From positions 43,336,632 through 43,400,631 of the forward strand of contig CP154954.1 of NCBI GenBank assembly GCA_039621445.1: DNA of 64,000 nucleotides, read 5' to 3'. Within the stretch, counting starts at the first letter, position 1. Each line of letters begins with the position of its first letter. Positions 12,801-64,000 of this stretch are shown piece by piece. Position numbers and translations under genes: made by a program. The notes under the pieces were generated by a model. That model was not told where the DNA came from. It did no database searches and saw nothing but the letters and a program-made list of their open reading frames with translations. This DNA comes from Euglena gracilis (Eukaryota).

Positions 12801-15614
12801 CAGGGGGGCGGGTAGGAACCTGTATCTCACCCTTGTGCCCGTTAGGCCACATTGCATTACGATTTTGGGGGGAATTCAGGTCGAATTCGGGCATTTTTTG
12901 GGGCAAACGGGTGATTCAAAAACCTTCCCAAAATGAAACTTCTGGCCAAATTTGGTCCCTAATAACTAATAATAAGGGACGGTCCTAACCCCTAACCCTG
13001 TCCTTGAAATTAAATGCCCACCCGCTGACCCAAACTGTAACTGAAATTTTTGAAAATTTTCATTTTTGTTGAAAATAGAAAAGCAATTTTCCCAAATTGA
13101 AAAAGAATGCCCCTGTTTTTATTTGGCTGCTGATCGCACTTATGTGAATTCCCGCATTTTCGGACTTTTGTTTCGTGCAGGGGGGGTCAAAACGTCAATT
13201 TTTCTCTTTTGATTGTCCTTCAGCTCCGTACTCATCAAGTGACAGTTTCTGGGGGGGGAGGGGTATGTGAGGAAGTATTTTGGGACATGATTTTGTGTTG
13301 CTGAACAACTCTTGGGACGATTTGGGGAAGGAGGAGAAAATTGTGAAGTTTGTTTGAGAAGGAAGGTGTGCTTGCATCACATCATCAATTTTTTTGGGAC
13401 AGATTCCCGTATGCTTTTTTGTTGGTCAGCGCGACAAATCCTCCACCAAAGATTTGTGCAAATCTTTTCCATCACAACGCACCTCCCATTTTCTGCCCAC
13501 AGGATGTCCCCAATGCGCTCTTTGGCGTCGATGATTATATCTCTGGTGTGTCTCCATTTGCCTTCTGTCCAAGGTTCCCTCTCAAAGAGACTTTCACGAA
13601 ACACAGGCAAATGAGAAACGGGGGCCAAAGCGAAAGTCTGCAGTCCTCTCGGTAAAACACACATTTATTCACCTCGTGTGTGGTCTGTGCATTGTCCCCC
13701 TGCCTTTTTCCGGCTTCACCCCCCCATCCTCAATCCTCAGGGGAATGGCCAAGCACTCCAGACATGGATGCAGTCCCCCTCGAGGTGTGCAATCACCCCC
13801 AATCTCTCCAATGTTCCAATGTGTCACATCCCTTCCATTCTTCCATTTGCTTTTTGTCTGGGTGTGATTGAGTTTTATTTTCGCTTTCCCCTCCGCAGGA
13901 AGACATCAAGCGACGGGAGCCGTACTTCAAGGTGCCTCAAAGTGCTTGTTTTCGCCATTTGAAATGCCCAAATAAATGTTCTGACAGAATTCCCATTGTG
14001 AAATACCCAGCACACGGGTCATTCTAAACAGCCCCCCGACTTTGCAAAGGCGTGCTTGTGTCGCTTCCCCCTTCCAGGCTTGTCAGATAGGGGAGGCGGG
14101 GAAAGAGGCTTTGTTCTTCAGCGCCCAGCCCATTCCAGTTTGCAATGATAATTTGAATTTGTCTTTGATCCAACGAAAGCCTCCAAAAAGCTTGCCCCTC
14201 CACCAGGCAAGGACAGCCACCGGATCCCATCGGGGATTTTTTTGACCATTTGACTAGTGGGTTTCCACCGGACCCCACCGGATCCCACCGGATCCGACCG
14301 GAGATTTTTTTTTCCATGCACAGATTTTTCTTCTGGATTTATGGCTCCAAATCTCCTTCCCCCGCATCCCCCCCACGTCCCCCCCCCCTGCGTCCTGGAT
14401 CTTGGCCGGCACATTTTTTGGTCGGTCAATGGAAAAATCCATACAATTTTGAGTGACGTCAATGAAGGTTATATGGGGACAGTTGAGCCACAGTTACCCC
14501 CCCCCCGCGTGCGTCCCCCCCCCCTCGTGTCTCCCGCACCCCCCCCCCCCTCCGTGTCCGAACCACCCCAAAGTCTCATTATGACAAAGAGGGATGTCCA
14601 ACTAAACAGAGCCAAAAGGTGACTCATGCGGGACAAGAAAAAGGGGCCAAGACCCTGACCCGAGGGTCATACAGGTGGTTATGCTGTGCACCCACTGCAT
14701 GACACAAAAAGAGTATCCGGTCCAAACCACCTTGCCGCATGTGTTTTTTCCCCAGTCCCCCTCCCCCCAAGGCAACCCATCGGATCCCACCGGATCCCAC
14801 CGGACCCCACGGACCCCACCGGAGACCAAAAAACCGAGGATGACTGTCCTTGCCCTCCCTCCACCCCCCACCCTCCACCCCCCAGGATCGTCGTTGGAAT
14901 TTATATTCAGTGGTTTGTCACATTGGGGTCAAGCTCTATCTTCCCAGCCAGCACCTCCATAGAGTAGATCGGTGGCTCTGCAAGAGTGTCGCAAAATGTG
15001 CTTTGGAACCAAACTGACAGGTGATCGTGGAATTCGGCACAGTGCGTATTTTTGGTCCGCTTTCGTAATAGGCCTCTCCCTTGCAAACCTCTTAGCCAAC
15101 ATTTAATATTAAGCGTCTTAGTGTGCAGGTTCCAGGTACCCCCCGTCAAAGGAACACCTACCTTACGCGCAGAAACATCAGCCCAAAATATGGATATCGA
15201 CCCCTAGAATGAGCCTCCTTGTTGACCGAGGGTTTGGGGGGGCCGGGAGTGCCAAAGGGGAAATTAGTGGTACACTTTAAAGAAAGCGGGTGCTTTCATT
15301 ATTTTGCATGTCTGAAGGTTCTCGCGCTCGCCAAGCCCAAGGCCAGCAGGCGGCTTGGTCCCCAGAGCTCTGAGCTCAGGGCGGCCCGTGTCTTTTTCTC
15401 ACTGCAGAGCATGACTGACATTCTTGCCGACAGCCAAGGGACTTCGGGGCTTCAGGGCATTCTGTATGGAGCAGGGCTACAGAGCCTCCATGGTGCGTGT
15501 GCGCGTGTGTGAGAGTTGTGTGTGTTGTGTGCGTGTGGTGTGTCTGTGTGTCTGTGTGTGTGCTGTGTGTCTGTGTGTGTGTGTGCGTGCATGTGTGTGT
15601 CTGTGTGTGCGTGC

Positions 15615-15657
<43 letters not shown>

Positions 15658-15782
15658 ATGTGTGTCTGTGTGTGTGTGTGTGTCGTGTGTGTGTGTGTGT
15701 GTGTTGTGTGTGTGTGTGTGTGTGTGTGCGGGTGTGTGCGTTGTATGTGTGTGCTGTGTGTTGTGTCTGTGTGTGTGTTGTG

Positions 15783-15819
<37 letters not shown>

Positions 15820-15821
15820 GT

Positions 15822-15901
<80 letters not shown>

Positions 15902-16127
15902 CACACACACACACACACACACAACCCACCCATCCACCCACCCACCCACACATCATGCACGCACGCACGAGCGCACAGACAAAACACAACACATACACAC
16001 ACACAAACACAATACACAACACACAGGCATAACACACACACAACACACAACTCAACACACACACACACACACACAGCACACACACGCACACACACACACA
16101 CACGCACACACGCACACACACACACAC

Positions 16128-16158
<31 letters not shown>

Positions 16159-16234
16159 ACACACACACACACAGAAAGAGACACACACAACACACAACAC
16201 ACACACATACACACAAAGAAAGACACACACACAC

Positions 16235-16303
<69 letters not shown>

Positions 16304-16460
16304 GCACACACACACACACACACACACGCACACACACACATACACACACAACACACACACACACACAGAAAGAGACACACACAACACACACACACACACA
16401 CACACACGCACGCACACACACACATACACACACAACACACACACAGAAAGAGACACACAC

Positions 16461-16498
<38 letters not shown>

Positions 16499-18300
16499 GA
16501 CACACACAACACACACACACACACACACGCACGCACACACACACATACACACACAACACACACACACACACAGAAAGAGACACACACAACACACACACAC
16601 ACACACACACATGCACACACAGCACACACACGCACACACACACGTGTGTGTATGTGATGTGTGTGTGTGTGTGATGTGTGTGTGTGTGTGCCTGCATCGG
16701 TCGCATGGGCATATGTACGTCATCGGCACCTTTTGATCTTCCTCACAACAGGTTCGAAAATCGCCTTTCATTTGCACCACCAAATATTTTGGAGTTTTCT
16801 GGGTCACAGCAGCCGTTGGCTGATTTTGACGGTTTGAAACTCTTTGGAATTTCAAGATGACTCACCTTGTTTAGACCAGAAGTGATTTGTGAAGGACAAT
16901 GGAGAGAGAGAGAGAGAGAGAGAGAGATGAATTAAATGAATTAATTTGTTTTAAGAAGCAAAATGCAGTCTTTTACATTTCATGGGTCGTTTTTTCGCGA
17001 CATTGGCTTGGTGTACGTCACCAAAATCCAAAGAAGGATTCTATTTAAGTGTTACGTAAAGTTGACAGCCGCAGAAGAAGGGGATGTGCAATTTTTTTCT
17101 GGGGAATTCGACGGCGAAAAAAAACTGAAGGCACATGACCCATCAATAAAATTGTTGAGGTTTTTTTTGGAAGTCCCAGAAACAAGCCGCCGATTTGCTG
17201 GCTTTTCCAAGTGTTTTTTGTTTTTTCCCCCAATGTTCTGGAGTTGAATTTTGCGGTTGATGTGCAGGTTTCCCAAGAAATGGGTGATGGGTTTTTGCCC
17301 ACAGGGCAGTGCCCACCCCCCCCCCTCCAGGCCACATTCCAGTGAAACCATGTCCCCCGTCCCCGGGGCCATGCTCGCCCCTGCCTCGGCCCCTGCGCAG
17401 ACCTGGTGGGGCCCCTGCCGACGCCGGCCGCCGCCTCCCCACCGCCGGGCCCCACCCCCCTGAAGGCGAAGGCGGTGGTGCCGCCGACCCCGCCCCGCTC
17501 CCCCACGTTCCCCTCCCTGGCATTGTCGCTCTCGGCGGAGCATTAGCCAGAGGGGGTCCGTTATGGGGAGGGGGGCAATTTCGCCCCCCCCCCCGGCAGG
17601 GTCCGGCTTTGTGTTGAGCCCGAAAATGGCCGTTAAAAAAATATTGTTGGCGTTGCGCCCCGGGAAGGTTCAGAAGGTGCCTGGCCATACGTTGCCTTTT
17701 TTCACCCGGGTCACCGATGACGGCTTTTGCAGGAGTCCATGGCTGCATCGACTGGGTTGTCGGTATTCGCAAGCTGCAATCCAAACGCTGATGCCATTTG
17801 CTTTTGTCACCTGCCATCTGGCTCGGCTGTTGGCTGTACAAAAGGTGCTTGGTTTCCCTTTGGGGTACAGAAATGCCCTGTGAATATGGGCTGCAAACAA
17901 TTTTTTTCCAAAGCATTTTGTAAGAGTTTTCTGATTATTTGTTCTGACCACAGGTTGCCCCCCCCCCAGATCGACGGGCGGCCTTTTTCCCGCCGGCCCG
18001 TATCCTTCGGGCTCTGAGCAGGGGGTCGGCAGGCTACGCCCTGCCCCGCATTTGTTCCGGTGGTGGGACGCCGCCCTGCCCGCATCCCGAGGCCCTCCCA
18101 GTACACGTCCGAGTGGAGCCGCCGGCTGTCCCCGGGCCTGTGCTACACTTCCCCCCCTCCTGGCGCCCGGGGCCCGGCCCGACCTGGCCGCATGCGGTGC
18201 AAAGCGTTTGTTGGGTGCGGGGGTGGGCGCCGCGCCGGAGGCGAACCACCTCCCGCCGGGGCACCGCGGGGCGGCGTGTCGGGGCGCCAGGGGAAAGACT
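6815..18300 (+). CDS. Scattered probable exons of a low-complexity protein gene (~6815-6900, ~8045-8170, ~8940-9050, 12073-~12156, ~15320-15390, ~17370-17530, ~18060-18290); may continue the upstream gene
   Basis: GC3-rich islands such as ccccccacag|LSITSFRSNSDAGISECESEATSARHGP at 12073 and TANSARSEASAGHKQPRRLSATEG at ~8045. Most junctions were not resolved. Confidence 0.3.
10565..10862. mobile_element. Partial second copy of the ATGTCCAACGAC MITE family
   Basis: Same left end (cccccctatgtccaa), same subrepeats and same internal AAAATTTTCGGC(A/G)CAAAGC core as 5634-6053. Confidence 0.7.
11035..11261. mobile_element. Small MITE-like element with CCCCCCAATAGTAGAG(G)CGGG TIRs
   Basis: ccccccaatagtagaggcggg ... 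cccgctctactattgggggg inverted termini; internal AGTAGAG subrepeat. Confidence 0.65.
12376..12812. mobile_element. MITE with CCCGCCCCCC..GGGCAATTG TIRs, TA flanks and an internal ~100-bp direct duplication
   Basis: TA(12374-12375) cccgcc..gggcaattg ... caattgcccaggggggcggg TA(12813-12814). The block gggcaattgacgcccccgggcaattgtcacccc occurs at 12391 and ~12691. Confidence 0.75.
14217..14823. repeat. CCACCGGA(T/C)C 10-mer subrepeat clusters, probably a MITE-like element
   Basis: Tandem ccaccggatc/ccaccggacc units at ~14264-14303 and ~14777-14823. Confidence 0.55.
15493..16690. repeat. 1.2-kb compound (GT)n-(CA)n-(GT)n microsatellite with a higher-order unit containing CAGAAAGAGA
   Basis: Directly visible; orientation switches at ~15820 and ~16643. 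Confidence 0.95.
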
Positions 18301-19386: not shown

Positions 19387-19745
<359 letters not shown>

Positions 19746-19866
19746 TACTCCTCAGGGTATTACTTGGGGGTTTACATACACCTCATACGTGCATGCTGTA
19801 CCCCCCCCCAAATATAAAAACCCCCAGCTGCATTGAACGGGATTTCAAGTTATATTTGGGTGGGAA

Positions 19867-19900
19867 TCGTAGTCGTAGTCGTAGTCGTAGTCGTAGTCGT

Positions 19901-19932
<32 letters not shown>

Positions 19933-19964
19933 TAGTAGTAGTAGGTAGTAGTAGTAGTAGTAGT

Positions 19965-20041
<77 letters not shown>

Positions 20042-20104
20042 TAGTCGTAGTAGTCGTAGTAGTAGTAGTAGTAGTAGTAGGAGTAGTGGTGGTGGTGGTG
20101 GTGG

Positions 20105-20135
<31 letters not shown>

Positions 20136-20148
20136 GGTGGTGGTGGTG

Positions 20149-20198
<50 letters not shown>

Positions 20199-20218
20199 AG
20201 GAGTAGGAGTAGGAGTAG
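19867..20218. repeat. Compound (GTAGTC)n(TAG)n(CAG)n(TGG)n(GTGGTC)n(GTAGGA)n microsatellite; left flank of the retrotransposon
   Basis: Directly visible. Confidence 0.95.
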
Positions 20219-20325
20219 GGGGGGGGGCTCGGTTGGCGATGGAGCTGTCCATCACCGGGCGCTGAGTGGGCTCAACGGCCTAGGCGCGAACCCAGGCCGC
20301 GATTCCCGCGCCCTGGCCCACCGGG

Positions 20326-23300
20326 CTAGGTGGGCGGGCCCTCCGTGGCACGCCCATGGGGAGGCGGCCGGGGACGAGCGGGCTGCATCCAGTCGGCCAA
20401 GGTGGCCTGCTTCTTCCGCGGGGGCGGGTCGGCCGGCAGCGGGGCGGGTCGGCGTGCTGAGGAGCTGGCATCCGCGGCTAGGGGGCTGCGGGAGGCAGGC
20501 GGTCGACGGCCGGAGAGAGCTGGGGTGGGCGGCCGGCGTTCGGAGGAGACCGCGCGACGTTTGGGGGCTACACGGTGCGGCCGGGCTGGGTCGGGCGGGC
20601 TGGGGGGGTCTGCGTCGGCTGGTGCGGGGGCGTTCACTGAGACGGCCGACACTGTCGCGGTCTCGGACGCTGGGTCTGGAGGGGGCGATGACGATGGCGC
20701 CGGAGGGAGCAAGGGCATCGGGGCTGCCGGGGTCACCGGGGGGAGGGCGGGGGCCAGCAAGCTGCGGAGGTACAGCTGCCAGTGTGCCACGAACCGGTGG
20801 TACCAGGCGGCACCCGCTCCGGCTGTGGGCTCCACCACCTGCACCGACCATCGGACGTGGTGGGAGCACGGGAGGCCCCGGGCGAGGGGGAGGTGAACGT
20901 CCTTGTGGAAGAACCAGTCCAGGTCGGGGGACTGCCGCACGTGGGTCTGGAGGCGGCGGGTGAAGCCCGACAGGATCTTGGACGGGTCGGCGCCGGTGGA
21001 GGGGAAGGGGCGATCGTGGTCGATCTCCCACAGCAGCAACAGGGCCATGTTGCACTCGCCCCGGTCCGGGGGTACGGGGGTGAGGGAACGGTGATCGCGG
21101 ATCCATGGGACGAAGGTGGAGTCGGCGGAGGTCATCCGGTGGTGGAGGGCGGCCGCGGGGTGGGCGGCCTCGCGGGCTTGGGTGGAGCGTCGCCACCGGT
21201 CCGCGTCCAGCGAGGTCTTGGGGGCACGGCTGTAATAGAACGTGCCCTGACGCCGGATTCTCGAGAGGGGGGGCTGCATCAAGGCAGATTCGGCCAGCAA
21301 GTTGCTCAGCACGCGGGCCACAGCGGACACGCGGTCCTTGACCGGGGTGCCGGGGGAGGCGGTGAAAGGCTCTCCCGTGGTGGACTCGAAGAGGGCCAGG
21401 ATGGCGACGGCGGAGCATCCGGAGGCGGCCGGGCAGGCCACCATCTCATCGCGCAGGAGCTCGTCGAGGCGGGAGCGCAGCCACAGCCGTCGGGCTTCGC
21501 CATGCGGTGGGGTGGGTGTGGTGGTCGAGGGGGGGCGGGGGGCGGCGCGGTCGGAGATCTCCCACTGGCGGAGGGTGGGGACGGTGGGCTGGCGTGAGGC
21601 GGGGAGCGGGCAGGGACGACGGAGGCGGGGAGCCGATGGGCTGGGGGGGGCGGGGGCAGGCCCGGGTGAGGGATCCGCCAGCACGAGGGTGTAGCGGCGG
21701 CTGAGCAGCTCGGCGAGGCGCTCGGCCAACGCCACGTGGAGGCGGCGCAGGAAGCGAACCGCATCTGCCGAGGACAGAGGGTGGTGCTGCAGGGTGGACG
21801 TCGGGATCAGGGCCGCCGTGAGGGGAAGATGGTGCTGATGCAGCCAGTCCGCTGGGGGAGGGGGGACGGCCAAGCGGCAGGCGAGAGCCACCGAGGCCCA
21901 CAGGGTGGGGAGCGCCGCTGGCCAGTCGCGTGAGCCGGTGGCCGGACAGTCTGCCAGGAGGTGGCGGTCATCTTCGTCCATCTCGGCACAGCAAGGGCAT
22001 AGCGCGGAGTCGACCCATCGGCATCGGAGGCGGCGGGCTTGGGTGGCCAGGCAGCCGCTCCGGACGCGGGCGACCCACTTCACCACTGCTGGGGCCACCG
22101 GGTGGCGGAACTGGCCTGACGCGCAGCAAGGCCGCAGGAAGACGACCACGACTACGAAGGCGAAGGCGACCGAGGAGGGCCAGTCGAAGTCCATCTCCGC
22201 GGGGTACAGCAGCTCGAGGCGGGGGCGGGTGCCAGGGGGTCCCCAGGAACGGCGTTGACGACGCCACCAGGTCACGGGGAAGGCGGACAGCACGTCGATG
22301 ACGGGGGCGCCGGAGGGGTCCAGCAGCTCGACGGCGTCGCGGCAGGAGGGGGGCGGATCCCAGACGGGGAGGCCGGTGTCTCGGGCGGCCCGCTTGGCGA
22401 GGGAGTCGGCCTGGTCGTTGCCGATGGCGAGGGGGTGACCGGAGGCGATGGCGTCCTCCTGGTGGGCCTGCACCTTGTGCAGCGGGGGGGCGGAGGGGCA
22501 GCTGCGGGCGAGCTCCAGCACGTGGCGGACATCGAAGCGATCGACGCAGCGGAGGGCGGCGGCGGTGGAGCGGGAACCCCAGCGAAGCAGCAGCTGAAGG
22601 GAGCACAGGCTGTCGGAGAACACCTCTGAGGGGCAGCGCCGGAGGGCAGCGCCGAGGGCCGCCAGCTCACAGTGGGTACTGCTGCGGGGTGCGGGGACAC
22701 TGATCAGGGAGAAGTCCTCGGTGTCGGGGAACCACGCTGCGGCTCCGCCTCGGCGGCCTAGCGAGCCGTCCGTGAAGGCCGCACCAGGGGCGGGGAGGCG
22801 GTCCACCGCGGTCAAGGTCACGTCTCCGGGATACGGGGGTTCGGGGGACAGCGCGGGCCACTGTGAGGCTCGTGGGCAAGCCGGGTTACGGCGCACGGTC
22901 CACGAGACGGCCTGCAGGGCGGCACGGAGGGCGACGGAGTGCTCGAGCCAGTCAGGGCCGGGGCAGGCGATGGCGCGGTGGAGGCAGCCGACCAGGCCGG
23001 GGGAGTTGGCGATCAGCTGGAGCCACTGCAGCTGCAACAGGCGGGCCTCCGCGAGGGGCTCGCGGACGGCTGAGGCGCCGAGGGGGAGGCCCATGGCCAC
23101 GTCGGGGCTGCGCCAGAGGTTGAGCTCCAGCGGGGGTTTGTGGAGCAGGGACTTCCCGGCGGCGGCGAGGAGGGCTACGTCCGCAGGCAGCAGGTTGCGC
23201 AGCTGGCAGCCGTAGAGGGCTTGGGGCAGCACGGCGGTGCGCCACAAGGTGCAGCAGACGGCGGCGGGGAGCGGCAGGGAGCGGAGGCGGTGGGCAGCAG

Positions 23301-26004
23301 CCAGGGCCTTCTCCACCCGGGGGGCAAAGTGGACCCGTGAGGCCGCGGGCTCCCGCATTCCGAGCTCGATACCCACGAAGCGGAAGCTCGCGGCGGAGGT
23401 CAGGACCATGTTCGGGACAGGGACGGAGAGGCCCGCGCCGAGGGACGACCATAGCTGCACCTTCGTCACGCGGACGCCCAGCAAGGCGCACCAGCGCAGG
23501 TAGGCGGAGATGAGGGATGTGATAGCGTCACGGCCGGAGCCCACCAGGACGAGATCGTCGGCGAAGCTGAGGGAGGCCACGTGGTGTCCGGCGATATGCA
23601 CCCCGCAGCTGGAGGTGGCCGCCCATCGGTGGAACCCCTCGAACAGGATGTTCAAGAGATCAGGGCTGGCAGGGCAGCCTTGGGCCAGGCCATTGGCCGC
23701 GCGCCATGAGGAGCCGTCGACGTGGCCATACCGGAAGCGCCGGGAGACGGAGGTGTAGAACGCCTCGAAGCAGTCCACCGTGGCTGCTGGGACTCCCGCA
23801 TGTCGGAGGGTGCCGAACACCGCCCACCACGGGAGGGAGTCGAAGCACTTCATCACGTCGAAGGACGCAAGCCACAGCTCGGAGTCCTCGCGTGCGGAGC
23901 GCTCGATGAGGTCCGCGACCACCTGTGCCGCGGGCAGTGTACCCCGCTGCGAACGGAAGCCGAAGGCGGCGTCACTCAGCACGAACTGCTCCAGCGTGGA
24001 GGCCCAGGAGGTGACAGTCCCCTTGGCCCACACTCGATAGATCAGCTCCAGGACGGTGATGGGCCGCTGGTCTTGGGGCCGGACGCCGCCAGAGGACTTG
24101 GGCACCATGGCCACGTAGGCCTGCAGCCACTCCTGGGGCCAGCGGCGCTGTTGCTCCACCAGAGCGAGGAGGCGCGCCACAGCAGCGTACCACCATGTCG
24201 GCATGGCCTTCCACGCTGCCAGGGGGATGCCGGTGATGCCCGGGGCGGCGCCATCCCGCATGCTGCGGAGGGCGGACCGCACCCGCTCTGTCGTCCAGGG
24301 TACCGAGGGCCACGAGGCCGGCAGCAGAGTGGCGCCGAACTCCGAGGAGAGGAAGGCGCTCCAGCGGGCTGCGGGGTCCTGGGAGGCGTGCTGGCGCAGT
24401 ACACTGTCCACCCAGAAGGACTGGACCACTTGGTCGACGGCGGCATGGGTCATGCACTGGTAGCCGGAGGCGTCGAGGATGGGCCGGGCGCCAAAGGGAG
24501 GGGCTTCCGCCTTGAGCCAGCGGAAGATCACTGCGGGGCGCTCGTGCCACAGCTGGGGGAGGGCGTCCCGCCACCGGGTATGGCGGGCGCGGCGGTGGGC
24601 TTGGAGGGCGCTGTCCAGGGCGGTGCGGCGGGCGGCGGACGCTGCGGAGATGGCGCTGCGGAGGGCGGGGACGGTCGTGCGGGGGAGGTGGACACCGCGG
24701 GCGGCGAGGGAATCCAGCAGGCGGACCCAGGACCAGGGCCATGGGCCGGTGGAGGGCGGGCGGGCGGTGAGGCGCTCCAGGCGGTGCAGCTCCGCGAGCG
24801 TGCCACGGAGGTGCACCACCTTCACGGACTCGTACGCAGGCCGGCGGTGCGGGGCGCGCCGCGTCCAGCCGCCAGCCAGACTGACCAGACGCTGCAGGGC
24901 CGCGTGCAGGGCGGCCGAGAGGGACTCGAGCGTGTGGTCGCGGTCCGGGGACAGGGCGGCCACCTCTGGCGAGGCTTCCCAGGAAGTCAGGATCTCGTTC
25001 CACGCGGAGGACTGCAAGAGGTCGGCGGAGGGGCCGTACAGGAGGGGCGGTGGGCGGTCCACGGGGGGGCGCCATTCCAGGCGTCCGGCGGAGAGGGACA
25101 GGGAGACGAAGCACGGTGAGTGACCCCCATCGCGGAAGTCCGACTCCACGGAGGCGCCGCGGAGGAGGGGCATGGCGGCGTTGTTGGCCAGGATGAGGTC
25201 GATCCGGGAGGCCGCCACCTGGCCGGACAGCTGGGGGGAGTGGAAGGTCATTGGGAGGGGTTCGGGGAGGAGGGCTGCATGGGCGTCAGTCCACGGGGCT
25301 CCGGGACCCGTGAGGTGGGCCAGCAGGGGGCAGGGGGTACGCTGGCGGCCGCTGCGACTGCTGTAATCCCGGGAGGGCAGCACGGAGCCGTTCCAGTCCC
25401 CCAGCAGCAGTGTGGGTACCTGCATGTCGAGGGAGTGGGAGAGTTCGCGGAAGGCGAGGTCGAAGCTGGCGCGCTCTGCAGACTGCCGATCCAGCGGGGC
25501 GTACACGGAGAGCAGCAGCAGACCGCGGGGGAGGTCAGGGCGCGGCGGGAGGGAGACGGCGTGCAGGCGCCGCATGGACACCAGGCGGCACCACGCAGGA
25601 AACTGGGGGACCATCGGGGAGACGGGGAGGCCGCTGCGGCAGAGAAAGCCCACTCCGACAGAGCGGGCATGCTCGGAGTGCTCCAAGGGGGGGGCGGGGC
25701 GTCCATGGTGCAGGTGCAGCTGCAGGTGGCGGGTGGTGGTGTGTGCGCGCTCCAGCAGCACGGGGGCGAGGTGGGTCTCCTGCACTGCCAGGATATCGAA
25801 GGGAAGGGAGGCCACCGCGGCCACCTTGGCGGGTGTCCAGTGGGACATGTTCCACGTGCCGATGCGGAGAAGGGGCGGACGGGAAGGGGCTGGCGGCGGG
25901 GCGGTGACTGGGGAGGGGGAAGCGGGTCTTGATCCGGCGGCTCCGAGGGGTGTGACGACCGGCTCCCGCCCGAGCCGGGCGCCAGGGTAAGACATGTCAG
26001 TCAT
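20326..26004 (-). CDS. Retrotransposon ORF2 polyprotein: APE endonuclease (~25870-25110), reverse transcriptase (~24260-23360), RNase H (~22785-22385), CCHC zinc motif (~22000-21940), C-terminal extension
   Basis: APE motifs IGTWNM, AVQETH, SVYAP, LGDWNG, SRIDLI. RT motifs APGITG, QRPITVL, FGFR, FDVMKCFDSL, GLAQGCPASP, SFADDL, FRFVGI. RNase H motifs FTDGS, CELAAL, FSDSL, KVQAH, GNDQADSLAK. Zinc motif CPCC..EDDRHLLADCP. Confidence 0.97.
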   Translation of the reverse strand: MTDMSYPGARLGREPVVTPLGAAGSRPASPSPVTAPPPAPSRPPLLRIGTWNMSHWTPAKVAAVASLPFDILAVQETHLAPVLLERAHTTTRHLQLHLHHGRPAPPLEHSEHARSVGVGFLCRSGLPVSPMVPQFPAWCRLVSMRRLHAVSLPPRPDLPRGLLLLSVYAPLDRQSAERASFDLAFRELSHSLDMQVPTLLLGDWNGSVLPSRDYSSRSGRQRTPCPLLAHLTGPGAPWTDAHAALLPEPLPMTFHSPQLSGQVAASRIDLILANNAAMPLLRGASVESDFRDGGHSPCFVSLSLSAGRLEWRPPVDRPPPLLYGPSADLLQSSAWNEILTSWEASPEVAALSPDRDHTLESLSAALHAALQRLVSLAGGWTRRAPHRRPAYESVKVVHLRGTLAELHRLERLTARPPSTGPWPWSWVRLLDSLAARGVHLPRTTVPALRSAISAASAARRTALDSALQAHRRARHTRWRDALPQLWHERPAVIFRWLKAEAPPFGARPILDASGYQCMTHAAVDQVVQSFWVDSVLRQHASQDPAARWSAFLSSEFGATLLPASWPSVPWTTERVRSALRSMRDGAAPGITGIPLAAWKAMPTWWYAAVARLLALVEQQRRWPQEWLQAYVAMVPKSSGGVRPQDQRPITVLELIYRVWAKGTVTSWASTLEQFVLSDAAFGFRSQRGTLPAAQVVADLIERSAREDSELWLASFDVMKCFDSLPWWAVFGTLRHAGVPAATVDCFEAFYTSVSRRFRYGHVDGSSWRAANGLAQGCPASPDLLNILFEGFHRWAATSSCGVHIAGHHVASLSFADDLVLVGSGRDAITSLISAYLRWCALLGVRVTKVQLWSSLGAGLSVPVPNMVLTSAASFRFVGIELGMREPAASRVHFAPRVEKALAAAHRLRSLPLPAAVCCTLWRTAVLPQALYGCQLRNLLPADVALLAAAGKSLLHKPPLELNLWRSPDVAMGLPLGASAVREPLAEARLLQLQWLQLIANSPGLVGCLHRAIACPGPDWLEHSVALRAALQAVSWTVRRNPACPRASQWPALSPEPPYPGDVTLTAVDRLPAPGAAFTDGSLGRRGGAAAWFPDTEDFSLISVPAPRSSTHCELAALGAALRRCPSEVFSDSLCSLQLLLRWGSRSTAAALRCVDRFDVRHVLELARSCPSAPPLHKVQAHQEDAIASGHPLAIGNDQADSLAKRAARDTGLPVWDPPPSCRDAVELLDPSGAPVIDVLSAFPVTWWRRQRRSWGPPGTRPRLELLYPAEMDFDWPSSVAFAFVVVVVFLRPCCASGQFRHPVAPAVVKWVARVRSGCLATQARRLRCRWVDSALCPCCAEMDEDDRHLLADCPATGSRDWPAALPTLWASVALACRLAVPPPPADWLHQHHLPLTAALIPTSTLQHHPLSSADAVRFLRRLHVALAERLAELLSRRYTLVLADPSPGPAPAPPSPSAPRLRRPCPLPASRQPTVPTLRQWEISDRAAPRPPSTTTPTPPHGEARRLWLRSRLDELLRDEMVACPAASGCSAVAILALFESTTGEPFTASPGTPVKDRVSAVARVLSNLLAESALMQPPLSRIRRQGTFYYSRAPKTSLDADRWRRSTQAREAAHPAAALHHRMTSADSTFVPWIRDHRSLTPVPPDRGECNMALLLLWEIDHDRPFPSTGADPSKILSGFTRRLQTHVRQSPDLDWFFHKDVHLPLARGLPCSHHVRWSVQVVEPTAGAGAAWYHRFVAHWQLYLRSLLAPALPPVTPAAPMPLLPPAPSSSPPPDPASETATVSAVSVNAPAPADADPPSPPDPARPHRVAPKRRAVSSERRPPTPALSGRRPPASRSPLAADASSSARRPAPLPADPPPRKKQATLADWMQPARPRPPPHGRATEGPPT

Positions 26005-28205
26005 GGTGGGCAGCGCCCACCGAAGCAGAGCGGCGAGGCAGCTTCTGCTTGTCCTTCTCCGGCGTGGTCAGCACGGCGGGGTCGGTAGGACGCTTAGCAC
26101 CGGAGAGCGCGGCGGGGGTCATCGGGGGGTCTCCGCCAAAGCTGGCGGCGATCGCCTCGTCCTGCGCGAGCAGGGCCTCTGCGTCGCGCCGGTCGCGCAC
26201 GTCGCCGGGGGTGGACAGCGGCCGCGTTGGGGAGAGGGGCTCGGATGGGTGACCAGCGGGAGGAGAGGGCTCATAGGGGGGGACACTGAGGGGGCGCGGC
26301 AGGCGGCGGTTAGAGGAAGTAGCGGCGGCGAGTTGCCGACGGAGCGTGGCGTTCTCCTCCTGCACCGCGGCGAGTTGGCGTTGAAGACCCTCCAGGGCGC
26401 GGCGCATCTCACGCAGCTCCAGCACGAGGTTGTCCGTCGCGGCGGACAGCGGAGGTGGCGGGGCGGCGGATGGGGCGCGCGGGGCCGGTGCCCCTGCCGG
26501 CGTGAGGACTTGCTGTCGCTGTGCTGCACGGCGCTCCTTCCGCGAGCCTGGGGGGGGCGGGGGGTGGCCAAGCCGGTGGGGACGGGGCGGACAGGGTGGG
26601 CCGGGTGGCTGGGGCGGCCATGGATGACGGGGGGGGGATCTTCCGTGCACCGCCCCACGTCGAGGAGGGTGGCAGCGCTGAGGAGGGTGAGGCAGATCGT
26701 GGCGCAGATCGTGGCGAAGAACGAGGCGCAGAACGCGGCGGGGCGGACGCCGGGGTGAGTCGTGCAGCGCATGAACGTCCCCACCCGCCCGTGTCGAAGG
26801 AGAACTTCGCGGGGGTGCCCACGGCCTGCACGTAGGCCGCTCGACGGAACGGCCCGGCGGCGGCAAGGCGTGTCTGCAGCGGCTGCAAACCCAGCTGGGC
26901 GAGCAGCGACGGCAGCTGGAAGACGTCGGCGTCCTCGAGAGGGCCCAGCCGCCACCAGACCGCCCCCCGGACGGGGACGTGGATGTTGGCCTTGGCGTCA
27001 CCGAGGAGGAAGCGGATCTGCGCCTCCAGCTCCCCACGTCCAGGACCACCAACGATGCGGACGGCCACATCCTTTTCCGAAGGCAGCAAGCCCGCGAAGC
27101 CCTCCATCGCGTGGAGCTTCTCCCACAAGGCCGCCGCCTCCTCCCGGCGCCCGCGGAGCCACACCAGGTTGAAGTTGGCGCGATTGAGCGCTGGGGAGGT
27201 GTCCGCCGTCCAGAAGGGTCGCAGGAACACCCCAGCGCAGCCAGAGCCGCGCAGCCAGCGCGAAGCCTCAGCCCGCGGCACGGCCAAGATGGCCGCCAAG
27301 CCCCCATGGGTCAACTGCACCTGCTGAAGACGGTGGGCAGGGCCGAAAGTAATGCCCATCGCCCCAGCCAGCTTCTCCAGCGCCCGGCGAGCCTCTCGTT
27401 CGACTTGCCGCTGTCGGGTCGCCGGGGGTGCTACATACTCCACCCGCAGGAGCTCCACGGCAGAGGGTTCAGGGTCAGGGGGTAGGCCGCGGATCCACGT
27501 ACCGCTCAGCAAGGGGCGATCGGTGCCTGCGCGGCGCACCCGCAGGGCCACGAGGACCTTATTCCGGGGAAGGAACGCGGTTTCCCAGGTCGGCGGGGGG
27601 AGCTGCCGAGAGTCCGCGGGCACGCGGCGGATGGGGGCCCGCTCGCCCACGGCGATGACGTCCACGGCCAGCTGCGGGTCGTCGAAGAGGGCGACGGCCT
27701 GGGGGAGCAGGTGACGGAGGGTCTCCGCGTTCAGCTGGGCTGGGCAGCGCCGGCGCTCCACCACCGCGAGGACGGCGACGACGGACGCGGCGTCTTCCAA
27801 CGGGATCTGCAACCGCACCCTCTCCAGCCACTTCTCCAAGTGGGGGCGCGGTGGTACTAGCAGCAAGTGGGCCCCCCCGGGGCCCCATGGTCGGGCCACC
27901 GACGTCTGCAAGGCGTCGGCATCCACGACATCTGGGCCAGAAGCGAAGTCGCCTCCGACAACGCGTATGCCTTGCAGGTCAGCCATCTGGTCGGACTCGA
28001 GGTCATGGGCCAGCCCTCGGAGCCATTCTGGGTCCAGCCGCGTGTCGTACACGCGGACCGCCGCATCGGGGGCCACGGAGGTGGGTAGTGTCCAGCCAGC
28101 AGCGCGCAGAGTCGCCACCAGCTGGAGCTCCTGCAGTTGCCGCGGCTCCAAGCGTGTGGCAGGCGCGGGCGTGGGCCCCGAGGCAGTCTCCGCGGGGGTT
28201 CCCAT
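25997..28205 (-). CDS. Retrotransposon ORF1 (putative nucleic-acid chaperone with C-terminal coiled coil), split by a +1 frameshift at the C8 run 26550-26557; may extend 5' to ATG 28374 through a second +1 shift
   Basis: 598-aa ORF 28205-26409 lies upstream of ORF2. The coiled coil LVLELREMRRALEGLQRQLAAVQEENATLRRQL is in the overlapping frame, whose stop (25997) overlaps the ORF2 start. Removing one C joins WPPPAPP to GSRKERR. Confidence 0.8.
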
Positions 28206-28425
28206 TCAGGGCATGCTGCCGGCGGTTGCGGGCCTTGGAGCTCATCGCCCACAAGACGGTCGCGTCCGAAGCCGGGTCACCCCACCGCGCAGCCGTAGCG
28301 CAAGGGGGCAGTCTCCATGGGGACAGCATATCCTCGAGGAGCCGGTCAATGGGGTCAAAGGGGGTCAAGGTCATCAAGGGTGAGGGGGCTCCTTCGGGGC
28401 CGTGCAGCAAGACGCTGCAACCATA

Positions 28426-29030
<605 letters not shown>

Positions 29031-29399: not shown

Positions 29400-31645
29400 C
29401 GCAGCCCCCTGCCCCCAGCGGTCCGCCGCCGTGTGACCCTCGGCCGCTGACGCCGCCGGCCGGCCCGCAGTCCACCCCAACTGCCCCCGGCGGCTCCCCG
29501 CAGAAGTTCGGCCACTTCCAGGTGCTGTCCCCGAAGGTGGACCTCACCGCGGACGGCGGCTACTACGTGGGCATCCGCCCGGGACGACGGAACAAGGTCC
29601 TCTGCCACGCAGCACTCCCCCCCCCCCGGCGACTGATGAAAACCCCCAAAAATATAAGCAACCCGTTGTTTAAAGTTGGGTTTCACTGTACAGGGGGGAG
29701 GGGAATGGCTGCCGAAAAAAGTGGTATGGAAGAAATTGGTGGAACAGAATCCTGCCAAATGTTTTCGCGCCTTTTTTGGCCGATACCACAAATATTTTCA
29801 CGTCACTTTTGGAAAAATTTTCGAAAATCTCCATTTTTTTTCCGCTGGAGTTCATTCAGAAAATATACTCGATTGTGTTGTCTGAAATTTTCTTTCATAC
29901 CAAAGGCAACAATTGTTTAGCGACGACGGGGCTGTTTGTCATTTGATGGTGGTTTGAAGGCTTCCAATTAGTGTCATATGAGATTCAAATTCCTTTTTTT
30001 TTTCTCCTTAGATTTCTTTTTGCACACCGTCTGCAAAATTTTCTCCAAACATTCTTCACAAAACGTCTTGCCAAACATTTCCGGACGCCAAAGCGACCAA
30101 ATTTTTTCTATCTTCAATTTTCTTGCCACCAGGTTCTTTTGGCACCAATTCCCCCCAGGACTCGCCGAGGGTTGATTCAGTTCGGACAACAGTCAATGGA
30201 AAAAATGTCTCAAATTGCTCAAGTAATGGGATGATTGTCGAATAATCAGAGGAGGAAAATTTTTTTCAGAGTGAAATTATGCAACAACATACGTCCAAAA
30301 TCAGTACAGACTCAATCAGTTTGAGCGTTTCCCCTAAAATTCGGTTTTTATTTTATTTTTGAACTTTGCTTCGGGTTTCCTGTATTTTCTCTTCTTTTGA
30401 CTTCATTTTAGGGTTGTTGCTTAAATTTGGAGTTTTCTCTGGTCCTGGAGGGGGGGGGGGTTGCTTGAGTTTTGAGGTTGCTTATATTTGGGTATTGGTT
30501 GGTTCGGGCCCAAAGTTTGCTTAAATTTGGAGGGGCTGCTTGTATTTGGGGAGGGGTTTGGAGCAATTGCTTGGAACCCTGAAAATTTTGCAATCTATGT
30601 CACATTACACACATTCATAGTTTTTCCTTTATATCTTTTTTTCAATTTTGGAGGTCTTCAAATACACCATCTGCACTTTTTTTGTTGCGTCGCGTTAGAC
30701 AAAACAACGCCACATTTCCCAAACCACAAAATAAAGAGAGAGATTTGGCGATGTTGTGTTTTGTATTTGAATGATGAGATAACAGTGCAGGCAACTGGAC
30801 AATGCACCATGCAAATAATAATAATTGACAATAATGCAATTCCACCCTGCCACAAGCAAAACAGCCAGGGCCTGGTCGCCAGCCGGAGGGTACCCCATCC
30901 CCGGAGGAAGGGTCCAGCCAGCAAGCAACCTTTTTGCAGGAGACCCCAGATCTCCCTCCCCACCACCACTGATGAGTTGATTTCACTGTCCAGCTGCCCA
31001 AAGGACGGCTGGATGGTTACAGATTATTTGCTTTTGGAGGTTCGGAAGTGGAAAGTGAAAAATTGTGGGGGGAAAAGTGGAAGTGAAATTTTTTTGCCAA
31101 AGAATGGCAAAATGGGTCAAAGTTGTGTTTCGATTTTTTTATACAATCAGCAGTTTCGATGCATTTTTTGCAGTTTTTTTTGGGTACCAGCGCGAAGACA
31201 GCATCGTTTCTGCTTTTTGATTTGATATTTTGGCCTCCGAATTTTTCCCAGTAATGCATTGGTTTTGTGTGTGTATATATACACCCTCAGGGGAAGGACA
31301 TCCGCGTCATCAGCAAGAAGAACCGCCAGAAGCTGCAGGTCTGTACCACGTACACCTACGGACTGCAGGGGGCTGAGCAACACGGGGTCAGGGAGGGGGC
31401 CTCCCTGTGATCGAGTGGGACCCACTTTGTTGACTTGAGCCTTTTGTCTCCTGTCGTTCTCGAAGACAAATTGGCAGCGCAATTTCTGGTGGCAAAGCAA
31501 GTCATGCTCCCTCAAGAAACCGACCGGGAGGAAGGGACACCGAGGGCGAAGGACAAATGCCATATACAGCCCACAGCTGCTGCGGACTACGACAACTCCG
31601 GGGCGGCGCCGCAGGATCCCGAAGTGATGCACTTCCTGCGCCAGT
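29400..31645 (+). CDS. Three linked exons (~29400-29596, 31291-31337, 31575-~31645) of an unknown protein; further probable exons to ~40400
   Basis: ...SPQKFGHFQVLSPKVDLTADGGYYVGIRPGRRNK|GKDIRVISKKNRQKLQ|AAADYDNSGAAPQDPEVMHFL. First intron is GT-AG (29597-31290). Second (31338-31574) has CTGTA/TACAG pairing in the +4/-6 register. Strong GC3 bias. Confidence 0.6.
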
Positions 31646-41467: not shown

Positions 41468-41790
41468 CCACCCCCCCCCCCGGGGGGGTGGGTGACTGGT
41501 TTTTTCAGAGTGACTGACTGGTTTTGGGCCCGGACCCCCTCCCCCCCCCCCGGGGGGGGGGGGTCGGCCAGGAGTGGGCAAAAGTGGCTTGAGTGACCCC
41601 GGCGCCGAAGGCGCCGGAAATTTTTTTTTGGCCTAAAATGGCCTAAAGTGACTGGAAAGTGGCCGTTTTTCTGAGTGGCCGACCCCCCCGGGGGGGGGGG
41701 GGGTAGTGACTGGCTGGTTTTTTGAAAATGAGTGACTGACTGGTTTTTAAAAAAGTGGAGTGACCCCCCCCTCCCCCCCCCGGGGGTCGG
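41468..41790. mobile_element. GTGACTG(A/G)CTGGTTTT family repeat (MITE-like); related copies at ~2685-2810 and ~47760-48042
   Basis: Repeated gtgactgactggtttt motif, central CCGGCGCCGAAGGCGCCGG hairpin, end ..cgg-TA. Confidence 0.65.
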
Positions 41791-52862: not shown

Positions 52863-53389
52863 CAGGGGGGGGGGGGAAATTGATATCCGCAATTTTTCCG
52901 CAATTTCCGCAATTTTCCGCAATTTCCGCAATTTTCCGCAATTTTCCGCAATTTTTCCGCAATTTCCGCAATTTTTCCGCAATTTTTTCCCATTTTTTTT
53001 CCGCAGAATTTTTTTTACATCACATAAGATGGTAGATTCAATGAGTTTAATCTATTCTTCAAATGGATCAATAGTTGTGCTATTGTGTTTTGTTGTTTTT
53101 TCCCCCCAGTTTACCAATTTTTCTCACAGGTGCACCACTGGTTACAGAATTGGGTGCGTCCCACCTGTGCAAAAAACATCAAGCGTGTTGATTTGTGCTC
53201 GCCTGCATCGACGTGGGTGTTGCGGTGTTCTGAACCTCACAATTGAAAAATTTCTAAGTCCCCTCAGACAGAAATGTGTACACCCGATATCAATTTTTCC
53301 GCAATTTTTTCCGCAATTTCCACAATTTTCCCGCAATTTTTCCGCAATTTTTCCGAAGGCCTCCGATATCAATTATTCCCCCCCCCCTG
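52863..53389. mobile_element. Non-autonomous DNA transposon with CAG(G)n..AATTGATATC TIRs, AATTTT(T)CCGC subterminal tandem repeats and a 7-bp TSD (TATCCAG)
   Basis: TATCCAG at 52856-52862 and 53390-53396; inverted termini; a degenerate relative lies at ~63143-63722. Confidence 0.85.

Positions 53390-54498: not shown

Positions 54499-64000
<9,502 letters not shown>

What the first reader, a model, noticed from the sequence alone, without database searches (positions are those of the whole stretch)
20196..28448. Microsatellite-embedded LINE with a 23-bp target duplication: candidate new sequence-specific family
Both ends abut an identical CGTAGGAGTAGGAGTAGGAGTAG inside a TAG-type compound microsatellite. 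Microsatellite-targeting non-LTR elements are established (e.g. Waldo at AC, Dong at TAA). I do not know of a TAG/GTAGGA-targeting, RNase H-bearing two-ORF element in euglenids. The open 1892-aa ORF2 suggests recent activity. It appears to lie antisense in an intron, between exon islands at ~18 kb and ~29.4 kb.
Basis: partly seen in the sequence, partly recalled or inferred. Interest (0 to 1): 0.75.

Follow-up and report, generated by a model that had tools for sequence, protein, structure and literature searches.

The report
Euglena LINE inserted in a microsatellite
This is a young, full-length copy of an undescribed but ordinary-type LINE retrotransposon of Euglena gracilis that landed in a TAG-type microsatellite, and one copy cannot show that the family aims at such repeats.

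Summary
An 8,207-bp, 70-73% GC body (20219-28425, minus strand) lies between two exact copies of the 23-bp CGTAGGAGTAGGAGTAGGAGTAG, inside a compound microsatellite.

It is an APE-type non-LTR retrotransposon. ORF2 is open (1,892 aa) and reads APE, RT, RNase H, CCHC, then a conserved C-terminal region of about 350 aa with no known family. All catalytic residues are invariant across 21 relatives. It has no poly(A). It ends in C9 after a strongly folded 3' UTR (z -4.47).

The host is Euglena gracilis. A Tctex-1 gene at 48.8-50.3 kb is 100% identical to EG_transcript_29924.

Many unnamed relatives at 45-70% identity exist in public protein sets, often on contigs of about 8.2 kb.

Against "recent activity": ORF1 as assembled is split over three frames compared with its relatives.

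Against "sequence-specific": there is one copy only, and tandem repeats cover 10% of the rest of the window. No Euglena genome was searchable, so other copies could not be collected.

The intron claim is not supported. Verdict: a new member of a known kind; specificity is untested.

The parts
19388..20195 (.). Left part of the compound microsatellite cluster: (ACT)n, (ACA)n, (CGTAGT)n, (GTA)n, (GCA)n, (GTG)n, (GTGGTC)n
   Evidence: TRF rows; sequence
20196..20218 (.). Left copy of the 23-bp target-site duplication. It lies at the 3' end of the minus-strand element.
   Evidence: Exact match; sequence
20219..20227 (-). Element 3' terminus: a run of nine C (G9 on the + strand). There is no poly(A).
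   Evidence: Sequence
20219..20325 (-). 3' UTR of 107 nt, with stable stem-loops
   Evidence: The last 152 nt fold at -90.7 kcal/mol, z -4.47, and 0 of 200 shuffles fold as well. No Rfam match.
20326..26004 (-). ORF2, 1,892 aa, open, stop codon included
   Evidence: Codon-position GC 0.72/0.58/0.86. 26 relatives at E<=0.001.
25105..25869 (-). APE-type endonuclease domain (ORF2 residues about 46-300)
   Evidence: Invariant N52, E76, D203, N205, D269 and H295 in 21 sequences. The family profile matches L1 endonuclease and APE1 chains at E 3e-7 to 1e-4. PF03372 is precomputed on relatives.
23365..24105 (-). Reverse transcriptase domain (residues 634-880), FADD motif at 814-817
   Evidence: RVT_1 E 4.1e-18. 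A815, D816 and D817 invariant. L1 ORF2p 3e-29 and R2 1e-26 with the profile.
22384..22779 (-). RNase H domain (residues 1076-1207)
   Evidence: RNase_H E 4.8e-6. D1079, E1113, D1131 and D1200 invariant. Gammaretroviral RNase H chains match at 3e-10.
22144..22164 (-). In-frame insertion of 7 residues, private to this copy (approximate position), made of GTC/GCC-type triplets
   Evidence: Gap in 17 of 17 other rows shown; DNA
21946..21999 (-). CCHC zinc knuckle (C1336, C1339, H1348, C1353)
   Evidence: Invariant in 21 sequences. Weak zf-RVT match, E 0.003, below the Pfam cut-off.
20755..21807 (-). Conserved C-terminal region of ORF2 (residues about 1400-1750) of no known family, with two similar helix/strand modules
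   Evidence: Conservation 0.34-0.49 per 50-residue block. Most 10-residue blocks of the model have mean pLDDT 80-97, with two dips (47-70 around residues 1440-1470 and 61 around 1490-1500), up to about residue 1750. No PDB fold match at E<0.001. The two halves align at E 0.038.
25997..26472 (-). ORF1 segment C (third frame): coiled-coil-like C-terminal part. Its stop overlaps the ORF2 ATG (CACCATGACTGA).
   Evidence: Aligns to P0178 residues 655-779. Frames mapped. Junction. An overlapping junction is also present in relative L001.
26409..28205 (-). ORF1 segment B (598-aa ORF). Its first 484 aa are the conserved core.
   Evidence: 68% identical to P0178 residues 48-531. GC by codon position 0.77/0.53/0.82. 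Model pLDDT 86.
28189..28329 (-). ORF1 segment A (another frame): the conserved N-terminus, including the RNRxxHALNGN motif
   Evidence: 60% identical to P0178 residues 1-44, E 2e-13. Also matches P0182. Frames.
28330..28425 (-). 5' UTR (inferred), up to the element's 5' end
   Evidence: Start codon aligned with M1 of P0178. The fold is not significant, z -1.26.
28426..28448 (.). Right copy of the 23-bp target-site duplication. It lies at the 5' end of the element.
   Evidence: Exact match; sequence
28449..28959 (.). Right part of the microsatellite cluster: (GTA)n, (CGTAGTAGTA)n, (GTT)n, AT-rich triplets, (ATTAGT)n
   Evidence: TRF; sequence

Best explanation
A full-length copy of an APE/RT/RNase H LINE of Euglena gracilis inserted, recently in evolutionary terms, by target-primed reverse transcription into an existing compound microsatellite. 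Inferred steps follow. The endonuclease nicked the + strand after ...GGAGTAG (20218 / 28448 in the empty site). That 3' OH primed cDNA synthesis on the element RNA, whose 3' end is a structured UTR ending in C9 rather than poly(A). The second strand was cut 23 bp away, at the (GTGGTC)n/(GTAGGA)3 border. Fill-in then produced the 23-bp duplication. The element belongs to a large, diverse, transcribed and so far unnamed Euglena family. I judge the microsatellite address of this copy to be most likely chance or a loose bias in a repeat-rich genome, not strict sequence specificity. As assembled, this copy can make ORF2 protein but not a full ORF1 protein. Shown: the anatomy, the duplication, the conserved catalytic residues, the host species, and the existence of the family. 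Inferred: the order and positions of the nicks, the age, and the lack of specificity.
For: An exact 23-bp duplication lies at the borders of a compositionally distinct 8,207-bp body. The element matches nothing else in the window and has no internal long repeats, so it has no LTRs. The domain order APE-RT-RNase H-CCHC has invariant catalytic residues in 21 of 21 aligned relatives. There is strong codon periodicity in both ORFs. Of the 26 ORF2 relatives, 17 cover at least 99% of the query region, and 12 of those 17 sit on contigs of 8.0-8.9 kb. That matches the 8.2-kb body and so supports the boundaries. An exhaustive search found 187 representatives at E<=1e-30. Two of the 33 ORF1 relatives are named EG_transcript_*. 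The host gene is 100% identical to an E. gracilis transcript. The 3' end is strongly structured. The base rate for landing in a tandem repeat is 5,578 of 55,793 non-element bases, or 10.0%; for period 6 or less it is 3,687, or 6.6%. The genome-wide figure is 9.85% (PMC11252322, passages). The element's C9 end shows at most 1 nt of complementarity to the primer end, unlike the repeat-matching tails I recall for known microsatellite-targeting LINEs.
Against: An insertion exactly inside a microsatellite is still about ten times likelier for a targeting element than for a random one. The lack of poly(A) is also common among site-specific LINEs (recalled). The duplication spans precisely the (GTAGGA)3 block between two other arrays, which could reflect recognition of that block. 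ORF2 has a conserved C-terminal region of unknown function that could be a nucleic-acid-binding module. With one copy, none of this can be weighed properly. The 5' and 3' ends have not been checked against any other copy.
Confidence: 0.7

Rival explanations
1. One reading: the family is a microsatellite-targeting LINE lineage that recognises TAG/GTAGGA-type repeats. Recognition would come through its endonuclease and/or the unexplained ORF2 C-terminal region, and the family would insert at a fixed register.
For: The only copy available sits inside such a repeat, with a clean duplication covering the whole (GTAGGA)3 block. There is no poly(A) tail. The C-terminal region is conserved and confidently modelled. 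Its non-significant fold neighbours (best E 0.16) are mostly winged-helix DNA-binding proteins such as IclR, ScpB, Stn1, Cdt1 and MukE. APE-type LINEs that target microsatellites are established: Waldo, Mino, Kibi and Koshi, with Dong also listed (PMC3812793, passages).
Against: There is only one copy. The base rate of tandem repeats is 7-10%. The element's 3' end (C9) does not resemble the target. The family profile retrieved L1 endonuclease and APE1 chains, but no chain named as a TRAS1 or R1 endonuclease, among the 60 listed of 61 matches at E<=0.01. The fold matches are far from significant.
Confidence: 0.2
2. The 23-bp repeat is not a target duplication. Either the (CTACTC)3CTACG at the 3' end is the element's own simple-repeat tail, or the element entered the middle of a longer (GTAGGA)7 tract without any duplication.
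For: Many LINEs end in short tandem repeats (recalled). Inside a repeat, flank identity is cheap.
Against: Both copies have the same length and include the non-repeat C at the outer end. The two outer flanks are different arrays, (GTGGTC)n and (GTA)n. A no-duplication model therefore needs two equal arms by coincidence. C9, not the repeat, directly follows the conserved, folded 3' UTR.
Confidence: 0.07
3. Assembly artefact: a GC-rich LINE contig wrongly joined into a microsatellite region.
For: Repeats and GC-rich DNA are hard to assemble. The two ORF1 frame breaks lie near C/G runs and could be consensus errors.
Against: A mis-join would not produce an exact 23-bp direct duplication precisely at both borders of a complete element.
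Confidence: 0.03

Closest known systems
RNase H-bearing APE-type LINEs of the I/ingi kind (for example L1Tc/ingi of trypanosomatids, the other well-studied Euglenozoa)
   Same: N-terminal APE endonuclease, RT, then RNase H, then a C-terminal zinc motif. TPRT-type insertion with a target duplication. Host phylum Euglenozoa. (The architecture of those clades is recalled, not tested here.)
   Different: Two overlapping ORFs rather than L1Tc's single ORF. CCHC rather than C2H2. No poly(A). A 23-bp rather than a 12-bp duplication. No HDV-like ribozyme or other Rfam match at the 5' end. An extra C-terminal region of about 350 aa. No reference sequences were available, so there is no phylogeny.
L1 (human LINE-1 ORF2p, PDB 8uw3/9k6g and others)
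   Same: Best solved-structure match of the family profile (E 3e-29, APE plus RT). Two ORFs. A CCHC after the polymerase. ORF1 has a coiled-coil-like segment and RRM-like predicted folds.
   Different: An RNase H lies between RT and CCHC. ORF1 (about 780 aa in relatives) has no Transposase_22 match, or any other Pfam match, and its coiled-coil-like segment is C-terminal. No poly(A). R2 scores nearly as well (1e-26), so the PDB match does not assign a clade.
Microsatellite-targeting LINEs: Waldo (ACAY), Mino (AC), Kibi (TC), Koshi (TTC), Dong (TAA) (PMC3812793, passages)
   Same: A LINE found inside a microsatellite.
   Different: Those families are defined by many copies at the same repeat. 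Here there is one copy. The repeat type (TAG/GTAGGA) and the host differ. Relationship to those clades is untested.

Membership tests
APE-type non-LTR retrotransposon (LINE) | N-terminal apurinic/apyrimidinic-like endonuclease with its catalytic residues | tested here: met
   N52, E76, D203, N205, D269 and H295 invariant in 21 of 21. The profile hits L1 endonuclease and APE1 chains. Pfam PF03372 is not detected on this copy at E<=0.1 but is precomputed on relatives.
APE-type non-LTR retrotransposon (LINE) | LINE-type reverse transcriptase with the xADD catalytic motif | tested here: met
   RVT_1 E 4e-18. FADD invariant. L1 ORF2p and R2 are the top solved relatives.
APE-type non-LTR retrotransposon (LINE) | No terminal repeats; flanked by a target-site duplication | tested here: met
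   Only the self-match appears in blastn of the element against the window. Exact 23-bp duplication.
APE-type non-LTR retrotransposon (LINE) | 3' poly(A) or short tandem-repeat tail | tested here: not met
   It ends in C9. This is an atypical tail. The feature is usual but not universal among LINEs (recalled).
Sequence-specific (microsatellite-targeting) LINE | Most independent copies lie in the same repeat type at the same register | not testable with these tools
   One copy in the window. The only DNA collection open holds bacteria and archaea. It gave two internal fragments without ends (L001, L002).
Sequence-specific (microsatellite-targeting) LINE | The insertion in a repeat is more than the base rate explains | tested here: inconclusive
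   One insertion, against a 6.6-10.0% repeat fraction.
R1 clade (Waldo, Mino) | Endonuclease and RT group with R1/TRAS | tested here: inconclusive
   No chain named as a TRAS1 or R1 endonuclease is among the 60 listed of 61 PDB matches at E<=0.01, while L1 endonuclease and APE1 are. No RT phylogeny was possible.
ingi/L1Tc clade | Single ORF, poly(A) tail, 5' Pr77/HDV-like ribozyme, C2H2 finger (features recalled; the ribozyme and Pr77 are also in the abstracts listed) | tested here: not met
   Two ORFs. C9 tail. No Rfam match at E<=1. CCHC. RT-based membership is untested.
L1 clade | ORF1p of the Transposase_22 type (coiled coil, RRM, CTD) | tested here: not met
   No Pfam family on P0002, P0178 or P0182. 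The predicted fold shows only weak RRM/ACT-like similarity (E 4e-4 to 1e-2, TM <0.2).

The most novel reading that the evidence does not exclude
The element represents a Euglena LINE lineage that aims at TAG/GTAGGA-type microsatellites. It would recognise them with the family-specific, tandemly duplicated C-terminal region of ORF2, possibly winged-helix-like. It would prime from a structured, poly(C)-ended RNA instead of poly(A). That would be a new target type, a new targeting module and a new tail for APE-type LINEs.
Probability: 0.15. Interest if true: 0.6.

Novelty: new member of a known kind. Interest (0 to 1): 0.3.

Why it matters
E. gracilis has a 2.4-Gb genome that is more than half repeats, and in the papers I could search its LINEs are only counted, not described. 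A full-length reference copy with defined ends, ORFs and domain map is useful for annotating that genome. If a genome-wide survey showed real microsatellite targeting, it would add a protist example, and a candidate targeting domain, to a short list drawn from insects, a snail and fish. As it stands, this is a well-preserved ordinary LINE insertion.

Tried and rejected
- **Second copies in the window:** blastn of the element, tblastn of its three ORFs and tblastn of all 210 stored relatives. This gave 240 HSPs, and only 1 lay outside the element: a weak RT-like match at 63656-63934, E 0.001.
- **Source names for the nearest out-of-family relatives:** Pfam on those proteins showed only APE plus RT. 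Clade assignment against Ingi, Proto, L1/Tx1 or RTE could therefore not be done. Reference sequences cannot be typed in.
- **Rfam:** nothing in the window at gathering scores and nothing in the element at E<=1. No tRNA was found.
- **5' UTR fold:** not significant (z -1.26).
- **Protein atlas:** the whole ORF2 gave only unnamed APE/RT/RNase H clusters with no taxa. The C-terminal region gave nothing usable.
- **Fold search of the C-terminal region:** no match at E<0.001.
- **Flanking 'exon islands':** 18 ORFs across the window, eight of them beside the element (17.1-18.9 kb and 29.0-29.9 kb), gave 0 Pfam matches. There is no codon periodicity at 18 kb.
- **Short dispersed repeats with long C runs:** I considered whether they are poly(C)-tailed partners of the LINE. 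The alignment shows C runs followed by G runs inside the repeat, not a tail, so I rejected the idea.
- **Literature:** five searches found no description of Euglena LINEs.


Full report
**1. The observation**

The 23-mer CGTAGGAGTAGGAGTAGGAGTAG is present exactly twice, at 20196-20218 and 28426-28448. None of 100 shuffles of the window gave a match.

Reading both junctions shows that the identity stops sharply on all four sides. On the left...GTGGTCGTGGT precedes the repeat and GGGGGGGGGCTCGG follows it. On the right...GCTGCAACCATA precedes it and TAGTAGTAG follows it.

Removing the body and one copy rebuilds a continuous compound array, (GTGGTC)n-(GTAGGA)3-(GTA)n. TRF confirms arrays on both sides. 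The intervening 8,207 bp (20219-28425) is 70-73% GC in a region that is otherwise 43-47% GC.

**2. What the body is**

*ORF2.* On the minus strand there is an open 1,892-aa ORF2 (26004..20326). It has Pfam RVT_1 (residues 634-880, E 4e-18), RNase_H (1076-1207, E 5e-6) and a sub-threshold zf-RVT match over a CCHC motif.

An alignment with 20 full-length relatives (A1) shows these residues invariant:
- the APE catalytic set: N52, E76, D203, N205, D269, H295;
- the RT FADD motif: A815, D816, D817;
- the RNase H DEDD set: D1079, E1113, D1131, D1200;
- the CCHC motif: C1336, C1339, H1348, C1353.

A profile of A1 against PDB sequences gave these matches (61 at E<=0.01):

| Solved relative | E-value |
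|---|---|
| Human L1 ORF2p (APE plus RT) | 3e-29 |
| R2 proteins | 1e-26 |
| Gammaretroviral RNase H | 3e-10 |
| L1 endonuclease and APE1 | 3e-7 to 1e-4 |

Codon-position GC is 0.72/0.58/0.86 in ORF2 and 0.77/0.53/0.82 in ORF1, so both are real coding frames. The element has no LTRs, because blastn against the window returns only the self-match. It is therefore an APE-type non-LTR retrotransposon with the order APE-RT-RNase H-CCHC.

*C-terminal region.* Beyond the CCHC lies a conserved region (about residues 1400-1750) with no Pfam family. Conservation is 0.34-0.49 per 50-residue block. AlphaFold2 on the family alignment models it well: most 10-residue blocks have mean pLDDT 80-97 up to about residue 1750, with two dips, and the rest is disordered. 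The model shows two similar helix/strand modules, and the two halves align weakly (E 0.038).

Foldseek against the PDB found nothing at E<0.001. The best match is E 0.16, and the non-significant list is rich in winged-helix proteins. That is a lead only. The protein atlas gave nothing usable.

*Extreme C-terminus and a private insertion.* The last residues, HGRAxxGPPT, are conserved to the final residue in the 15 complete relatives shown with the query, although they are only about 50% identical overall. This may reflect a constraint on the RNA 3' region as much as on the protein (inference). This copy also has a private in-frame insertion of 7 residues made of GTC/GCC-type triplets.

**3. Ends of the element**

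After the ORF2 stop there is a 107-nt 3' UTR ending in nine C, and then the duplication. There is no poly(A).

The last 152 nt fold at -90.7 kcal/mol against -72.2 +/- 4.1 for shuffles (z -4.47; 0 of 200 shuffles fold as well). That fits a LINE whose RT recognises a structured 3' end (inference).

Rfam has no match, at gathering scores for the window or at E<=1 for the element. The 5' UTR fold is not significant.

**4. ORF1 is not intact as assembled**

ORF1 has 33 relatives at E<=0.001, and 17 of them are 695-791 aa long. The closest, P0178 (780 aa), maps onto this copy in three different frames:

| P0178 residues | Match in the window | Evidence |
|---|---|---|
| 1-44 | A small ORF starting at the ATG at 28329; 60% identity, E 2e-13; holds the conserved RNRxxHALNGN motif |; also P0182, |
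| 48-531 | The 598-aa ORF (28205..26409), residues 6-484; 68% identity | |
| 655-779 | A third frame ending at 25997; coiled-coil-like | |

The breaks lie at about 28190 and between 26472 and 26428. Each is equivalent to one extra base.

Both breaks are in C/G-rich stretches. They may be real mutations or consensus errors, and I cannot tell which.

The ORF1 stop overlaps the ORF2 start (CACCATGACTGA). A 43%-identical relative (L001) also has an overlapping junction, so the arrangement is a family trait.

The 484-aa ORF1 core has no Pfam family. Its model (pLDDT 86) is a string of alpha/beta modules. The fold matches are weak: tandem RRM, ACT and ABM folds at E 4e-4 to 1e-2, with TM below 0.2. 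This is compatible with an RNA-binding ORF1p but does not prove it.

**5. Host and family**

A three-exon gene on the + strand encodes a 115-aa Tctex-1 dynein light chain. Its exons are at 48815-48934, 49908 to about 50020, and 50165-50287. It is 100% identical to eukprot EG_transcript_29924, so the window is Euglena gracilis.

ORF2 has 26 relatives at E<=0.001 in the word-indexed search. They are 36-56% identical over long alignments, and one is 71% identical over half the region. Of these, 17 cover at least 99% of the query region, and 12 of those 17 sit on contigs of 8.0-8.9 kb. That matches the 8.2-kb body and independently supports the boundaries.

The exhaustive search found 14,868 representatives at E<=0.001 and 187 at E<=1e-30. 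Most of the best 150 were fragments of the same family. Two ORF1 relatives carry EG_transcript names. The family is therefore large, diverse and transcribed, but unnamed. No hit is closer than 71%, so this particular subfamily is not in the protein sets.

Five literature searches found no description of Euglena LINEs.
- The chromosome-level genome paper only counts them: LINE 1.49%, TRF 9.85% (PMC11252322, passages).
- The 2019 draft-genome paper has no occurrence of 'retrotransposon', 'transposable', 'microsatellite' or 'reverse transcriptase' (PMC6366073, term search).
- A 2026 preprint mentions 'LINE/L1-like RTs' in Euglena only in passing (10.64898/2026.05.21.726589, passages).

**6. Is the family sequence-specific?**

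There is no second copy in the window. The only open DNA collection holds prokaryote genomes. It gave two internal fragments without ends, from a MAG labelled Nitrososphaerales, which is presumably eukaryotic contamination.

The base rate is high. Tandem repeats cover 5,578 of 55,793 non-element bases (10.0%), and those of period 6 or less cover 6.6%. This agrees with the published 9.85%. One hit on a repeat is thus only about a tenfold likelihood ratio in favour of targeting. Starting from a low prior, that leaves roughly 0.15-0.25.

Against targeting: the RNA's C9 end shows at most 1 nt of complementarity to the primer end ...GTAG.

In its favour: there is no poly(A), the duplication covers exactly the (GTAGGA)3 block, and there is an unexplained conserved C-terminal region.

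**7. The intron claim**

Five frames tested over 17.67-18.90 kb and a sixth over 17.15-17.93 kb have flat codon-position GC (for example 0.65/0.65/0.65) and junk-like translations. None of the 18 flanking ORFs tested has a Pfam match.

A scan for periodic, stop-free 50-codon windows found a segment at 29432-29671 (+) and nothing at 18 kb. The translation of that segment is not convincingly protein-like, and I did not search it against protein databases.

The only verified gene begins 20 kb downstream. The claim is unsupported but not excluded.

**8. Verdict**

This is a real, young, full-length LINE insertion with a clean 23-bp duplication, and a useful reference copy of an undescribed E. gracilis family. 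It is a new member of a known kind. Target specificity, clade placement and autonomy of this copy remain open. The decisive test is a genome-wide junction table.

Noticed in passing
window 48815-50290 (+): A three-exon Tctex-1 family dynein light chain gene, 115 aa, 100% identical to eukprot EG_transcript_29924. It identifies the organism as Euglena gracilis. The two introns are about 970 and 140 bp.
   Followed up: yes
L001 and L002 (contigs JBEKFK010000135.1 and JBEKFK010000331.1 of a MAG titled Nitrososphaerales archaeon): Two contigs of a genome bin labelled archaeal encode 43-46% identical relatives of this eukaryotic LINE ORF2. L001 also holds the ORF1 end. The bin most likely contains euglenid (eukaryotic) contamination.
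   Followed up: partly
window 19399-19636 and 28449-28730: (ACT)n on the left and (GTA)n on the right are inverted complements of each other (about 238 nt, 89-92% complementary). Before the insertion they lay about 580 bp apart and could form a large hairpin or cruciform. Whether such structure attracts the endonuclease is unknown.
   Followed up: no
window 15493-16690: A 1.2-kb dinucleotide array switches strand in the middle: (GT)n, then (CA)n, then (GT)n.
   Followed up: no
window 2684-2730, 41509-41555, 41735-41781, 47781-47827, 47982-48028 and others: A short dispersed repeat family with the core GTGACTGACTGGTTTTT followed by a long C run and then a G run. At least 5 aligned copies. It is not a poly(C)-tailed partner of the LINE. 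Its nature is unknown.
   Followed up: partly
window 63656-63934 (+): A weak tblastn match (E 0.001, 21% identity over 101 aa) to a distant RT protein (P0165). It may be a decayed fragment of another retroelement at the window edge.
   Followed up: no
window 62132-62341 (+): A stop-free segment with strong codon periodicity and a protein-like translation (GHYLTATSEPDKEVIIGNIFAQFADMFYHVDLF...). It is probably an exon of a second host gene. Not searched.
   Followed up: no
window 20326-20360 (-), the end of ORF2: The last ten residues of ORF2 (HGRATEGPPT) are conserved to the stop codon across subfamilies that are only about 50% identical, after a long unconserved disordered stretch. This suggests an RNA-level constraint next to the structured 3' UTR.
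   Followed up: partly
window 52886-53005, 53291-53355, 63645-63695: Arrays of a 10-11-nt unit (CCGCAATTTT) recur at three places in the window.
   Followed up: no
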